Of a DNA stretch of 64,000 nucleotides, positions 18,090-47,503 are shown piece by piece. The notes beneath the pieces are model-generated. The model saw nothing but the letters and a program-made list of their open reading frames with translations. It was not told the origin of the DNA and did not search any database. The translations under genes were made by a program, and so were the position numbers. The stretch's first letter is position 1, and each line of letters begins with the position of its first letter. Origin of the DNA: Candidatus Poriferihabitaceae bacterium (GTDB lineage Bacteria; Pseudomonadota; Gammaproteobacteria; Arenicellales; Poriferihabitantaceae); NCBI GenBank assembly GCA_965221795.1, contig OZ244914.1:2112974-2176973 (forward strand), read 5' to 3'.

Positions 18090-19117
18090 CCTAATTACCA
18101 TGAATCATACGCCGCATTTCAGGAGCTTTTCCGACATCGGTGGGGTTCGTAAGGCAACATAAGCAAGTCTGGGGATGAGATCGGGCAGGTGGTATCGGCG
18201 ATTGAAGCGGTATTCGAATTCGGCAAGGTCGCGTTGTGCGTATTTCGGCCGGAAGGAATGATAGCTGCTACGCAAGGCCGACTTCCGGTTGCCGAGCACG
18301 GTATTGACCCCGTAGAACTCCGGCTTTCTACCGCGGCCGACCGCCGCCGCTGACCACGACCGGATGCCGGCATCCAGCCCGGGTGACACCGTCGAAGCCT
18401 TGCAATCCGTCGGAAACCACCTCGCTACCCGCCACCAGGTGTCGACGGGCCCAGTCGGCGAGGTGCGACTGGCGGAAACTCGCGACCACGTTCCGTTTGA
18501 TACGTTGGGGGTGACCCTCTTCGGTGGTCTGCACGGCCGCTACGAATGGGGTTTTGCCTTCCGCTCCACGGCCCCGTTTGCCGCCGCTTCGCTCCCCACC
18601 CAGATACGCATCGTCCCGCTGCACCCGACCGTCCAGACGCTGGTTTCCAGTCCGATCCATCATCCCCTGCATCAGCTAGTGCTGAATCCGCCAGGCGGCA
18701 TGATAGGACCCCCCCAGTTGGCGGTGTCGCGGCATTGCCGAGCCCCCCTTCTGGGTCTGGGTCCGCAGGTAGATGGCCGGAAACCAAAGGGTCAGTGGCA
18801 ACTTGTTGGATTCGAAGATCGTGCCGGCGATGATCGAGGTCTGCCGATGGCACCGATCGCACGGGCGCAGCTTGCGGGTGTTCAGATGGCAACTCTGGTC
18901 GTGGCCGCAGTGCGGGCACATGAAGCCTTTGGGCCAGCGCAGCCGGAACAGGGCCTCGTCACATGGGTCTTCATCTCCGTATAGCTCGAAAAATGCGTTG
19001 AGACGGAGACCTTTCTGGAACGGGACCGGATTGCGCTTCTGGGTATACTCCTTTAAATCAATCTGTTACGAGTGTTCGATGATACCAAAAACCCACTTAT
19101 GATTGATGGTAATTATG
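18090..19117 (-). mobile_element. IS1595-family element, frameshifted transposase
   Basis: TIRs CCTAATTACCATGAATCATA / CATAATTACCATCAATCATA; perfect 8-bp TSD AAAGACTA (18082-89, 19118-25); fragments FQKGL, RWP.GFMCPHC, DDAYLGG, SDGL, LAEFEYRFNRR in different frames. Confidence 0.92.
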
Positions 19118-45125: not shown

Positions 45126-45182
45126 CGCGGCGAAATTCGGGTGACAATGAGTGGTAAAGTGAGAGGATACAGTATACGGGAC

Positions 45183-46070
45183 ATGTCCATGAACCGCAAA
45201 ACGGGAGTTCTGCACATTGTGGCCACGCCGATCGGGCATCTCGGTGACCTGTCTCCCCGAGCCGCGGAGGTATTGCGGCGAGCCGATCTGGTGCTGGCAG
45301 AAGACACCCGCCAATCCGGTATCCTGATGCGGCACTATAATATACGGACATCACTCCGGTCTTTCCATCAGCACAATGAAAAAGAACAGATCGCGCCGGT
45401 CCTCCGCGAACTGGAAAAGGGAGCCTGCATTGCGCTCATTAGTGATGCCGGTACACCCCTGATCTCTGACCCAGGCTATCTTCTGGTGCGTGAGGTCCGC
45501 AAACAGGGGTTCCGGGTATCCCCCATACCGGGGCCTTGCGCCCTGATTGCTGCTTTGTCAGCTTCCGGTTTGCCGACCGACCGATTTGTGTTCGAAGGTT
45601 TCGTGCCAGCGAAAGACGGGGCCAGAAAGACATACCTGCAACGGGTCGCAACGGAGGAAAGTACCATCGTGATGTATGAATCCTGTCACCGGATGATGGC
45701 TACATTGGAGCAGATGTCCGAATTGCTGGGCCCGGCCAGGACCATCGTGATCGGTCGGGAAATCAGCAAGAAATTCGAAACTTTCTACCATGGCAGCTCT
45801 GGAGAGGTACTGGTGCAGTTGATGGCGGACCCGGCCCACCAACGGGGGGAGTTTGTGATTATGGTCTCCGGGGCACCGGGCAGGGAGCCGGACGAGGTTC
45901 CTCTCCAGCATCTGTTGATGCTTCTGCTTGGGGAATTGCCAGTTAAGTCTGCCAGTCGAATTGCCGCTAACTGGCTGGGAATTCCCCGAAACCGTGCCTA
46001 TACCAAGGCACTGGAGCTGGAACGGGAGCGGCGCAAGGGTTCGTCATCTTCGGTCCGGAAGGAGCAGTGA
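45183..46070 (+). CDS. rsmI: 16S rRNA C1402 2'-O-methyltransferase
   Basis: LHIVATPIGHLGD, AEDTR, ISDAGTPLISDPG, PIPGPCA, YESCHR, REISK.FE. Confidence 0.95.
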   Translation: MSMNRKTGVLHIVATPIGHLGDLSPRAAEVLRRADLVLAEDTRQSGILMRHYNIRTSLRSFHQHNEKEQIAPVLRELEKGACIALISDAGTPLISDPGYLLVREVRKQGFRVSPIPGPCALIAALSASGLPTDRFVFEGFVPAKDGARKTYLQRVATEESTIVMYESCHRMMATLEQMSELLGPARTIVIGREISKKFETFYHGSSGEVLVQLMADPAHQRGEFVIMVSGAPGREPDEVPLQHLLMLLLGELPVKSASRIAANWLGIPRNRAYTKALELERERRKGSSSSVRKEQ

Positions 46071-46160
46071 CTGGACGGGGGCCATTGTTTGGGAATTACA
46101 CAGGAAAGTTGACAGCCTTCCTTTTATCAATCCCATCTTTTCTGTTGGCGGTACAACCGG

Positions 46161-46189
46161 TTGACATGTCGCCCAAGCCGTCTTATATT
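46161..46189 (+). promoter_or_regulatory. Near-consensus sigma70 promoter inside the cassette
   Basis: TTGACA (46161-66), 17-bp spacer, TATATT (46184-89), 41 bp upstream of ATG 46231. Confidence 0.7.
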
Positions 46190-46230
46190 CCTCGATGCAA
46201 CATCTACTCCGCGGATCAACAATGTACAGC

Positions 46231-46840
46231 ATGACCATATTCCCCCCCCCCCCCCTCCGCTAGACTGACGGCCCTCGCGGCCGCAATGGCGTTCTTCCTG
46301 CTGCTCGCAGGACCGGCACAGGCGCAAACGCCGCCTGACTGCAACAATTCCATCTGCACCGCCCGGGTTGCAGGCGTCTACGGCAGCAGGGTCGTGAACG
46401 GCTGCGGCGATCATGCCACGCCGGGCCGCTTCAAGGTGATCCTATCGAGCACCAACCCCAACGTGGAACGGTCAAGCTTCAAGAGCGGTATCAGCCTGAA
46501 TCTGGAAAAAGACTCCTCGCACGGGAGTGCCGACATGTTCCGCGACTTTGAGTGGCGCGGCGGGGCTAGAAACAGTTGGAATGATGTGACGCCAGGAACT
46601 TTCGGACAAATCGCATTTTATGGCGGCGATCTTGGCGAGAACCTCGTGGAAGTGCGGCCCAAGGCCGGTGCCCACATCTGGAGCAACACGGGCGAGCTGG
46701 TGATTCCGGTCATCAAGGTGCAGCGCAGCACCGGCAACAGAGCCTACGCGCACACAGGCGAAACCTACTTCCTGTTCACCGGCGGCAAGGGCTGCGCACG
46801 GGTCGGCCCTGGCGGCGACTTGCTCGGCGGCAACCAGTAG
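46231..46840 (+). CDS. Secreted hypothetical protein, out of frame at the poly-C tract (open ORF 46286-46840)
   Basis: With C13 or C16 it reads MTIFPPPPSARLTALAAAMAFFLLLAGPAQA-Q, a complete Sec signal; mature part Gly-rich with 4 Cys, no family recognised. Confidence 0.65.
46242..46255 (+). repeat. C14 homopolymer in the 5' end of the passenger gene
   Basis: 14 consecutive C; the frame from ATG 46231 stops at TAG 46261. Confidence 0.85.
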
Positions 46841-47113
46841 CCGAACTTAAAACCCGCCGCGGCGCGGCGAAAAACGAGAGTACACGCTTGTCGTGCGTCT
46901 CGCCTGGACGAAACCCCCGTATCTGGCCAGTTTGACGGCTATCTGAATGGGACCGCCGCGTTTCGGCTGAACACGCAAGAGAATTTGTAGGTGCTGATCA
47001 TTGATCGTGATGCCTGTCAACTTTCCTATGTAATTCCCCATTGTTTCCGGAAGTATACTTCCAGGTGAAGCTGTGGTCCCAAAAAAACTGCGCTGCCGTT
47101 ATAATCCGCAGTC

Positions 47114-47459
47114 GGGAGTCAGCTAGGCAGCCGCTCCGGCTTGAGAGTCGGGGAGGAAAGTCCGGGCTCCATAGGGCGAGGTGCCAGGTAATGCCTGGGC
47201 GACGTGAGTCGACGGAAAGTGCCACAGAAAATATACCGCCGCAACGGTTCGGTTGCGGTAAGGGTGAAATGGTACGGTAAGAGCGTACCGCGCTGCCGGT
47301 AACGGCAGTGGCAGGGCAAACCCCACCTGGAGCAAGACCAAATAGGAACCATAAGGCGCGGCCCGTGCCGGGTTCGGGTAGGTTGCTTGAGGCATTCGGT
47401 GACGGGTGTTCCAGATGAATGGCTGTCCACGACAGAACCCGGCTTATCGGCTGACTCCC
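47114..47459 (+). ncRNA. rnpB: RNase P RNA (type A)
   Basis: GAGGAAAGTCCGGGC, GGTAAGAG, GGAGCAAGACCAAATAG, ACAGAACCCGGCTTA; P1 helix GGGAGTCAGC / GCTGACTCCC; TATAAT at 47100-05. Confidence 0.96.
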
Positions 47460-47503
47460 GCCCAATTCGCATGCCGTGCAAGTCGACGGGTCTCCGGTCG
47501 GCT

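What the first reader, a model, noticed from the sequence alone, without database searches (positions are those of the whole stretch)
46083..47046. Transposase-less mobile cassette delivering a secreted protein between rsmI and rnpB
Seen: a 948-bp unit with 25-bp TIRs (24/25 identical), a perfect 8-bp TSD, its own consensus promoter and one passenger gene of no recognisable family. A short stretch near the right end (46919-46990, VSGQFDGYLNGTAAFRLN) faintly resembles the IS1595 C-terminal YL.EF.FR.N motif. The TIRs differ from those of the IS1595 at 18090. Known: IS1595-family elements make 8-bp TSDs and have passenger-carrying non-autonomous derivatives. Inference: a recent insertion of a minimal gene-delivery cassette that might carry different cargo elsewhere.
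Basis: partly seen in the sequence, partly recalled or inferred. Interest (0 to 1): 0.7.

Follow-up and report, generated by a model that had tools for sequence, protein, structure and literature searches.

The report
Transposase-less IS1595 cassette carrying switchable gene
A 948-bp jumping cassette has no transposase of its own and has recently landed between rsmI and the RNase P RNA gene; it is a known kind of element, but its one gene encodes a secreted protein headed by a slippery run of C's that looks like an on/off switch, and relatives of that gene are shared by bacteria from several phyla.

Summary
The element is real and has moved. Window 46091-47038 is a 948-bp unit with 25-bp inverted ends (24/25) and a perfect 8-bp target duplication (CATTGTTT). 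A second copy lies 1.28 Mb away in the same chromosome, with unrelated flanks and its own perfect duplication (TTTCAAAG).

The ends are those of ISNwi1-like IS1595 elements, which are abundant in this genome. The closest transposase-bearing element is a 2,773-bp one whose ends match at 21/25. A 609-bp sibling in another MAG has an identical end and keeps relics of that transposase clade. This is therefore a mobile insertion cassette, a known kind.

The cargo has its own promoter (TTGACA-17-TATATT). An ATG is followed by a poly-C tract, a signal peptide and a roughly 170-residue all-beta domain with four invariant cysteines, no known family and no fold match. The two copies differ internally only in tract length (14 vs 15 C), and both are out of frame.

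The tract is conserved across about 70 homologues in alpha- and gammaproteobacterial and acidobacterial MAGs, at 8-29 C. This fits a slipped-strand contingency gene that spreads horizontally.

The parts
45141..46070 (+). rsmI (left neighbour). Its stop codon ends 20 bp before the insertion point.
   Evidence: ORF. tblastn to relatives gives 46-55% identity.
46083..46090 (.). Left copy of the 8-bp target-site duplication, CATTGTTT.
46091..46115 (+). Left terminal inverted repeat, GGGAATTACACAGGAAAGTTGACAG.
   Evidence: The terminal GGGAATTAYATA is shared with transposase-bearing IS1595 elements of this genome.
46145..46846 (+). Captured cargo module: promoter, leader, tract, signal peptide, mature domain and stop. 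Homology to non-cassette copies of the gene family starts at about element position 55 and ends at about 756.
   Evidence: blastn extents to L056, L075 and L086.
46161..46189 (+). Sigma-70-type promoter TTGACA-17 nt-TATATT, belonging to the cargo.
   Evidence: 11 of 12 matches. Conserved in the homologous cassettes L118 and L142.
46222..46233 (+). Candidate start codons ATG 46222-46224 and ATG 46231-46233, both in the same frame (MYSMTIF-Pn).
46242..46255 (+). Poly-C tract, 14 nt here and 15 nt in the second copy. The upstream ATGs come into frame with the ORF only at 13 or 16 C, so both copies are OFF as assembled.
46259..46324 (+). Signal-peptide coding region (ARLTALAAAMAFFLLLAGPAQA, predicted cleavage AQA|Q).
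   Evidence: Alignment (A13 and Q14 invariant). The cleavage site is inferred by inspection; no signal-peptide predictor was available.
46325..46840 (+). Mature domain of about 171 residues plus the stop codon. It is all-beta, has four invariant Cys and an invariant C-terminal GGKGCARV...Q.
46853..46871 (-). GC-rich hairpin just after the cargo stop. It scores as an intrinsic terminator only for the minus strand.
46847..47013 (.). Right subterminal backbone of the cassette. It is non-coding and about 85% identical to the cassettes in L118 and L142, against 67% over the whole cassette alignment.
47014..47038 (-). Right terminal inverted repeat (reverse complement GGGAATTACATAGGAAAGTTGACAG).
   Evidence: Identical 25-mers occur in G053 and G056.
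47039..47046 (.). Right copy of the target-site duplication, CATTGTTT.
47115..47462 (+). rnpB (RNase P RNA, bacterial class A), 76 bp beyond the right TIR.
   Evidence: 343.7 bits, E = 4e-113.

Best explanation
Window 46091-47038 is a non-autonomous derivative of an ISNwi1-like IS1595-family insertion sequence, that is, a mobile insertion cassette (MIC). It keeps only the two 25-bp ends plus about 30 bp (left) and about 165 bp (right) of subterminal backbone. It has no transposase and encloses one captured gene with its own promoter.

It transposed recently into AT-rich 8-bp targets at two places in this chromosome. This was presumably done in trans by an IS1595 transposase of the clade carried by the 2,773-bp element at C1:2327544-2330316. 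Here it landed in the 88-bp spacer between rsmI and rnpB without disrupting either gene.

The cargo is a Sec-exported, disulfide-containing beta-sandwich protein of unknown biochemical function. Its expression is gated by a poly-C tract placed between the start codon and the signal peptide. Replication slippage changes the tract length and moves the start codon in or out of frame (ON at 13 or 16 C; this copy has 14 and the other 15, so both are OFF).

The same gene family, with the same tract position, is spread by horizontal transfer among co-occurring, apparently sponge-associated bacteria of different classes and phyla. IS1595-type cassettes are one of its vehicles.

Shown: the anatomy, two copies with separate TSDs, the family assignment of the ends, the absence of a transposase, the tract-length difference, the tract's frame consequences and the cross-phylum distribution. 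Inferred: which transposase moves it, real ON/OFF switching in cells, export, and function.
For: Mobility. The two copies are 99.6% identical, have unrelated flanks and each has a perfect 8-bp TSD.

Family. The terminal GGGAATTAYATA plus an 8-bp TSD is shared with more than 10 elements in the genome that carry PF12762 transposases: a 2,607-bp element in four copies, and elements of 2,773, 2,848 and 4,708 bp.

Cognate clade.
- The TIR of the 2,773-bp element matches ours at 21/25 (19 of the outer 20), and its 315-aa transposase is intact.
- G211 holds four copies of a 2,793-bp element with perfect TSDs, the TIR GGGAATTATCAAGGAAAGTTGACAA and a transposase 55% identical to that one.
- The 609-bp element L136:6193-6801 has a 25/25 identical TIR and transposase relics (E = 6e-8 and 2e-5) of the same clade.
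- 181-bp MITEs with the same TIR type and TSDs occur in G193.

No transposase in the element.

Insertion into a conserved junction. rsmI and rnpB are 10-210 bp apart in four relatives.

Switch.
- The only internal difference between the copies is 14 vs 15 C.
- All four near-identical pairs of family members differ in tract length.
- 68 of 80 homologous loci carry a C8-C29 tract at the same place.
- Called proteins in relatives read M-x(2-8)-Pn-[LA][RK]L-signal peptide.
- Genome-wide there are 41 such leader tracts, 11 ON and 30 OFF, close to the 1/3 expected for random frames.

Horizontal transfer. There is 91-92% nucleotide identity to copies in complete Paracoccaceae chromosomes over the mature domain only, and 88-89% to Ca. 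Poriferihabitans and Arenicellales copies from the tract to the stop. Cargo GC is 62% against 55.5% for the genome.
Against: - No transposase-bearing element with an identical TIR was found. The best in this genome differs at 4 of 25 positions, so trans-mobilisation by it is not shown.
- Both copies, and all seven paralogues in this genome, are out of frame as assembled. That could also mean decay, or homopolymer consensus error in a long-read assembly.
- No empty-site allele from the same species is available; the cassette-free junctions come from relatives with only 46-55% RsmI identity.
- Most family members in other genomes are not flanked by IS1595-type ends (11 of 80 loci), so the cassette is not the family's main vehicle.
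- Secretion rests on inspection of the leader, and the function is unknown (no Pfam, PDB or BFVD match).
Confidence: 0.8

Rival explanations
1. The cargo is simply a decaying pseudogene. On this view the tract is a mutational liability, the 14 vs 15 C difference is neutral slippage or an assembly error, and no regulated ON/OFF switching takes place.
For: Both copies and all seven paralogues in this genome are out of frame. Long homopolymers are error-prone in long-read consensus. No expression or read data could be obtained.
Against: - Downstream of the tract every copy keeps a long intact ORF with 38 invariant columns, including four Cys.
- The tract is kept at the same place in about 70 homologues in several phyla rather than being lost.
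- About 27% of leader-type tracts genome-wide are in frame, as expected for a population of switches.
- In-frame relatives give a sensible M-x-Pn-signal-peptide N-terminus.
Confidence: 0.12
2. Translation starts at the internal ATG 46286 (MAFFLLLAGPAQA...). The protein would then be made constitutively, and the poly-C tract would lie in the 5' UTR, where its length would at most tune transcription or translation.
For: A Met at this position is common in the gammaproteobacterial-type leaders (LAAAM...). The ORF listing and public gene calls often start there.
Against: - The residues upstream of that Met (ARLTALAAA) are conserved at the protein level and supply the only basic residue of the signal peptide.
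- Some paralogues (C1:2926043) and many homologues have no Met there at all.
- There is no purine-rich ribosome-binding site before 46286.
- A 13-residue leader without an n-region is a poor Sec signal (general knowledge).
Confidence: 0.08
3. The cassette is moved by a different transposase from the one proposed: another of the IS1595 lineages in this genome acting on the shared outer 12 bp, or a partner that has since been lost. In the latter case the element would now be stranded.
For: - All IS1595-type elements of the genome share GGGAATTAYATA but differ further in.
- G053 and G056 hold identical TIRs, yet their IS1595 transposase-bearing elements have TIRs matching at only 13-16 of 25.
- No exact-TIR autonomous element was found in the genomes searched, the JGI metagenome contigs or the viral contigs.
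Against: The inner box AGGAAAGTT(G/T) is shared only with the 2,773-bp element and its G211 relative. The L136 relic ties the exact TIR to that transposase clade.
Confidence: 0.25
4. The two copies arose by segmental duplication or recombination rather than transposition, and the flanking 8-bp repeats are coincidental.
For: None beyond the small number of copies.
Against: Homology stops exactly at the TIR tips. Each copy has its own perfect 8-bp repeat, with a chance of about 1 in 65,000 each. More than 10 sister elements show the same geometry.
Confidence: 0.02

Closest known systems
Mobile insertion cassettes (MICs), e.g. IS231-derived MIC231 of the Bacillus cereus group (De Palmenaer et al. 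2004, cited in PMC3129680)
   Same: IS-type inverted ends flank passenger gene(s). There is no transposase. The element is mobilised in trans by a related IS in the same genome and is bounded by target-site duplications. The definition is taken from PMC3129680.
   Different: The parent family is IS1595 (8-bp TSD), not IS4/IS231. The passenger is a self-promoted secreted-protein gene with a homopolymer switch. Trans-mobilisation is not demonstrated here.
IS1595 family, ISNwi1-like subgroup, including 'transporter IS' with passenger genes (Siguier, Gagnevin & Chandler 2009, cited in PMC3129680; subgroup end consensus recalled from memory)
   Same: 8-bp AT-rich TSDs and GGGAAT-TAT-type termini. 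The same genome holds full-length members with a zinc ribbon plus a DDE_Tnp_IS1595 transposase and passenger methyltransferases.
   Different: This element lacks the transposase entirely and shows no detectable relic of it. It therefore counts as a derivative of the family, not a full member.
Homopolymer contingency loci in the signal-peptide region, e.g. the poly-G tract in pilC of Neisseria (from memory); general survey of homopolymeric tracts in PMC2831843
   Same: A G/C homopolymer lies a few codons after the ATG, inside or just before the signal-peptide coding region. Length changes shift the frame. The gene belongs to a multigene family of exported proteins.
   Different: The tracts are much longer (up to 30 nt). 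They are found in uncultivated host-associated environmental bacteria of several phyla. Here the gene is embedded in a transposable cassette. Switching has not been observed experimentally.

Membership tests
IS1595 family (as a non-autonomous derivative) | 8-bp target-site duplication | tested here: met
   CATTGTTT (window copy) and TTTCAAAG (second copy), both perfect.
IS1595 family (as a non-autonomous derivative) | Terminal inverted repeats shared with elements that encode a DDE_Tnp_IS1595 (PF12762) transposase | tested here: met
   The outer 12 bp are shared with all transposase-bearing elements of the genome. TIR identity is 21/25 to the 2,773-bp element and to the G211 element. A 25/25 identical TIR sits on a deletion derivative with transposase relics.
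IS1595 family (as a non-autonomous derivative) | Encodes a zinc-ribbon plus DDE IS1595 transposase | tested here: not met
   No transposase ORF or relic was found. It is therefore a derivative, not an autonomous member.
Mobile insertion cassette (MIC) | IS ends enclosing passenger gene(s) unrelated to transposition, without a transposase | tested here: met
   One passenger ORF with its own promoter. Pfam and NCBIfam find nothing, and there is no transposase similarity.
Mobile insertion cassette (MIC) | Evidence of transposition (several copies at unrelated sites, or an empty site) | tested here: met
   A second copy has different flanks and a different TSD. rsmI-rnpB junctions without a cassette occur in four relatives.
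Mobile insertion cassette (MIC) | Mobilised in trans by a cognate transposase present in the cell | not testable with these tools
   A candidate is present (315 aa, intact, TIR 21/25). A transposition assay is needed.
Phase-variable contingency locus (slipped-strand mispairing) | Hypermutable simple repeat placed so that length changes switch the reading frame or promoter | tested here: met
   The C14 tract lies 11-20 nt after the ATGs. The frame is restored at C13 or C16.
Phase-variable contingency locus (slipped-strand mispairing) | Repeat length varies between otherwise identical alleles or copies | tested here: met
   14 vs 15 C is the only internal difference in 948 bp. All four near-identical pairs differ. 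The range across homologues is C8-C29.
Phase-variable contingency locus (slipped-strand mispairing) | Length heterogeneity within one population, and reversible ON/OFF expression | not testable with these tools
No expression data were available.
Sec-exported protein | N-terminal signal peptide with a basic n-region, a hydrophobic core and an AxA cleavage site | tested here: inconclusive
   ARLTALAAAMAFFLLLAGPAQA|Q was read from the sequence and the alignment. No signal-peptide predictor was available.

The most novel reading that the evidence does not exclude
The promoter, ATG, poly-C tract and signal peptide form a portable switch module. It is recombined onto interchangeable secreted-domain genes. 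IS1595-type cassettes like this one are a dedicated shuttle that passes such switchable surface or secreted genes between unrelated bacteria living in the same animal host. The result would be a community-wide shared pool of contingency genes for dealing with the host or with phages.

Support:
- Homology breakpoints fall exactly at the tract and at the end of the signal peptide.
- The same left-end module sits on cassettes with other cargo (L137, L141).
- Other transposase-less cassettes in this genome carry other tract-led secreted genes.
Probability: 0.3. Interest if true: 0.75.

Novelty: new member of a known kind. Interest (0 to 1): 0.45.

Why it matters
As a mobile element it is ordinary: transposase-less IS1595 cassettes are a known kind and turn up repeatedly. 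Its value is as a clean, datable example.

- The two copies are identical apart from the homopolymer length and three bases of one end. This gives direct within-genome evidence that the tract mutates far faster than its surroundings.
- It ties a candidate phase-variable secreted-protein family to a concrete vehicle for spread between bacterial phyla in an apparently sponge-associated community.
- If the switch is real, contingency loci, so far studied mainly in pathogens, would also be a common strategy of uncultivated animal symbionts, and would be exchangeable between them.

Tried and rejected
- Transposase relic at 46919-46990: rejected.
Rejected.
- Exact-TIR search in JGI metagenome contigs and viral contigs: no hits.
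- Exact-protein look-up of the cargo in public assemblies: not on record.
- Sequence and fold searches for a function all came back empty or insignificant: Pfam, NCBIfam, PDB by sequence, Foldseek against PDB and BFVD (best E about 3e-3, TM below 0.4, generic Ig/lectin-like beta-sandwiches).
- Literature: no paper was found that describes homopolymer switches in sponge symbionts, or that contains the Candidatus names in the record titles.
- An automated ON/OFF call across the 80 foreign loci is noisy, because chance upstream ATGs inflate the ON class. It is used only qualitatively.

Full report
**1. The observation**

The window holds GGGAATTACACAGGAAAGTTGACAG at 46091-46115 and its near-perfect inverse at 47014-47038 (24/25). 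The pattern occurs nowhere else in the 64 kb, and none of 100 shuffles gave a match. The 8 bp outside each end are both CATTGTTT. Inside there is one long ORF (46286-46840, + strand) and one strong sigma-70-type promoter, TTGACA-17-TATATT at 46161-46189. rsmI ends at 46070, and rnpB (Rfam RF00010, 343.7 bits) runs 47115-47462.

**2. It is mobile**

The window is C1:2112974-2176973 of a closed 3.64-Mb chromosome. A second copy lies at C1:3440109-3441057. It is 949 bp long, 99.6% identical, has unrelated flanks (it lies about 0.9 kb upstream of rpsF and rplI) and has its own perfect duplication, TTTCAAAG.

The two copies differ only at positions 7, 9 and 11 of the left TIR and by one C in a poly-C tract.

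In four relatives (two same genus, one same family, one same order) rsmI and rnpB are separated by only about 10-210 bp, too little to hold a cassette. Without the element the spacer here would be 88 bp. No same-species empty allele was available.

**3. Which family**

The genome holds about 30 PF12762 (DDE_Tnp_IS1595) matches and a population of elements that all start GGGAATTAYATA and are flanked by perfect 8-bp, AT-rich duplications.

- Elements with a transposase: a 2,607-bp element in four copies, and elements of 2,773, 2,848, 3,327 and 4,708 bp. Most also carry DNA methyltransferase passengers.
- Elements without a transposase: the present 948/949-bp pair, plus elements of 1,046, 1,322, 1,567 and 1,632 bp.

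By the ISfinder definitions quoted in PMC3129680 the former are "transporter IS" and the latter are mobile insertion cassettes (MICs).

**4. The likely helper**

- In this genome the closest ends belong to the 2,773-bp element C1:2327544-2330316. Its TIR GGGAATTATATAGGAAAGTTTGCAA matches ours at 21/25 (19 of the outer 20). It has a perfect TSD and an intact 315-aa transposase with a zinc ribbon and a DDE domain (E = 1e-42).
- In a same-family genome (G211) a 2,793-bp element is present four times, each copy with a perfect TSD. Its TIR is GGGAATTATCAAGGAAAGTTGACAA, with the same inner box as ours. Its transposase is 55% identical to the 315-aa one and only 35-40% identical to the other IS1595 transposases of this genome.
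- In a Pseudomonadales MAG (G053) a 609-bp element has one TIR identical to ours at 25/25. Reading inward from that end, it keeps residues 6-33 and 278-299 of the same transposase clade (E = 2e-5 and 6e-8).
- G193 holds 181-bp MITEs of the same TIR type with TSDs.

The TIR type therefore belongs to that clade and exists in autonomous, MITE and MIC forms. Whether the 315-aa enzyme actually moves the cassette is inferred, not shown. No autonomous element with an exact TIR was found in the genomes searched, in JGI metagenome contigs or in viral contigs.

**5. The supposed transposase relic**

The peptide VSGQFDGYLNGTAAFRLN (46919-46990) does not align with five IS1595 transposases better than shuffled versions do. 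It has no Pfam hit at E<=10. In the homologous cassette of Ca. Azotimanducus (L118) the residues at the three motif positions are C, L and P. In addition, the L136 relic shows that the end with this TIR lies next to the transposase start, not its C-terminus. The resemblance is chance.

The right 165 bp are nevertheless conserved between cassettes, at about 85% against 67% over the whole cassette alignment. I read this region as transposition backbone.

**6. The cargo**

The ORF has no Pfam or NCBIfam family. It has 77 unnamed homologues in the large protein collection. An alignment of 22 members shows a signal peptide ending AQA|Q, four invariant cysteines and an invariant C-terminus, GGKGCARV...Q.

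AlphaFold2 gives an all-beta model (mean pLDDT 81.8, pTM 0.78). Foldseek finds nothing significant in PDB or BFVD: best E is about 3e-3 with TM below 0.4, and the hits are generic Ig-like and lectin-like sandwiches. A PDB profile search is also empty. The biochemical function is therefore unknown. An exported binding protein is my inference.

**7. The poly-C tract**

A run of 14 C sits between the ATGs at 46222 and 46231 and the signal peptide (46242-46255). With 14 C the ATG frame stops at TAG 46261. With 13 or 16 C it reads MYSMTIF-Pn-SARLTALAAAMAFFLLLAGPAQA|Q.... The second copy has 15 C and is also out of frame.

Several lines point to a slipped-strand switch rather than damage.
- The tract length is the only internal difference between the two copies.
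- All four near-identical pairs of family members in the fetched loci differ in tract length.
- 68 of 80 homologous loci from other genomes have a C8-C29 tract at the same position.
- Where the frame is open, public gene calls read M-x(2-8)-Pn-[LA][RK]L...signal peptide.
- The residues between the tract and the internal Met are conserved as protein, and some members lack that Met.
- The genome has 107 poly-C/G tracts of 9 nt or more, against about 10 poly-A/T. Of these, 41 have the layout ATG, tract, signal peptide, and 11 of the 41 are in frame, close to one third.

Still open: homopolymer consensus error, real switching in cells, and the fact that all seven paralogues here are OFF (about 6% by chance).

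**8. Spread**

A scan of one genome per species found 119 relatives, 80 of which were kept. They lie in MAGs labelled Paracoccaceae, Aestuariivita, Rhodospirillales, Arenicellales, Pseudomonadales, Pseudohongiella, Ca. Poriferihabitans, Ca. Azotimanducus, Ca. Azophilus and Bryobacterales. Many of these are closed chromosomes.

- The window copy is 91-92% identical in nucleotides to Paracoccaceae copies, but only over the mature domain (element positions 221-748).
- It is 88-89% identical to Ca. Poriferihabitans and Arenicellales copies from the tract to the stop.
- Other copies align from about position 55, that is, including the promoter but not the TIR.

The gene with its promoter was therefore captured between IS ends, and the leader and the mature domain recombine as separate modules. 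Cargo GC is 62% against 55.5% for the genome.

IS1595-type ends lie within 1.5 kb of the gene in 11 of 80 loci and are enriched near it. The cassette is thus one vehicle among others. Cassettes with the same left module but other cargo exist: L137 (2,124 bp, a different secreted protein plus a TnpB remnant) and L141 (2,781 bp, a secreted protein plus AbiEii).

**9. Effect at the insertion site**

Neither neighbouring gene is interrupted. A TATAAT box at 47100-47105 remains in front of rnpB. The cargo points towards rnpB, and no plus-strand terminator is predicted between them; the hairpin at 46853-46871 scores only for the minus strand. Read-through from the cassette promoter into rnpB is therefore possible. 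This is inference.

**10. Verdict**

The element is a new member of a known kind (an IS1595-derived MIC). The more interesting part is the cargo: a candidate contingency gene that is shared horizontally. Earlier notes of this scan on the same genome had already flagged the poly-C leaders. I re-derived that here independently and added two things: the cassette link and the tract-length difference between the two copies.

Noticed in passing
Whole genome (G000), e.g. C1:364013, 954062, 1674328, 3350354: There are 107 poly-C/G tracts of 9-30 nt against about 10 poly-A/T of 9 nt or more. Of these, 41 follow an ATG within 50 nt and precede a signal peptide attached to various mature domains; 11 are in frame and 30 are out of frame.
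   Followed up: partly
window 46097, 46099, 46101 (left TIR positions 7, 9, 11): All three substitutions between the two otherwise identical copies fall within 5 bp of the left TIR. The same positions 7-11 are the variable spacer between the conserved GGGAAT tip and the AGGAAAGTTGACA box in all related TIRs. Why they changed so fast is unexplained.
   Followed up: partly
G000 C1:2327544-2330316: This 2,773-bp IS1595 transporter element carries, besides the transposase, a 506-codon N6/N4 DNA methyltransferase with a weak Mrr-like nuclease domain. The gene begins with a 21-nt poly-G tract, which may make it a phase-variable modification gene riding on an IS.
   Followed up: partly
G000 C1:630881-632202: A 1,322-bp transposase-less cassette with IS1595-type ends and a perfect TSD (CTTATTTA). 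Its only cargo is a TnpB (OrfB_IS605 / Cas12f1-like TNB) gene.
   Followed up: partly
G000 C1:269233-270799, 1433801-1435432, 3281990-3283035: Three further transposase-less IS1595-type cassettes. Two carry other secreted-protein genes led by a poly-C/G tract. One carries a methyltransferase fragment plus a small secreted protein.
   Followed up: partly
window 46847-47013 vs L118:4560-4720 and L142:6370-6530: The non-coding right subterminal region of the cassette is more conserved between genomes (about 85%) than the cassette alignment as a whole (67%). No conserved ORF and no Rfam family was found there. It may hold transposase binding sites.
   Followed up: partly
Same-genus genomes G005, G006, G007, G008, G011: In these relatives rsmI and rnpB are 6-13 kb apart instead of adjacent, so this junction may be a recurrent landing site for foreign DNA. 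The inserts were not examined.
   Followed up: no
L118 and L142 (Ca. Azotimanducus G052, Ca. Azophilus G045): Homologous cassettes in two differently named MAGs share the same right flank and lack the outer part of the left TIR. They may be one-ended, immobilised copies sitting inside a larger shared segment.
   Followed up: no
L165:594-3386 (G211, four copies): The 2,793-bp autonomous relative carries a 408-aa ORF as a second gene; by inspection only (not scanned against Pfam) it looks like an rve/IS481-like integrase. This could be a nested IS or a passenger.
   Followed up: no
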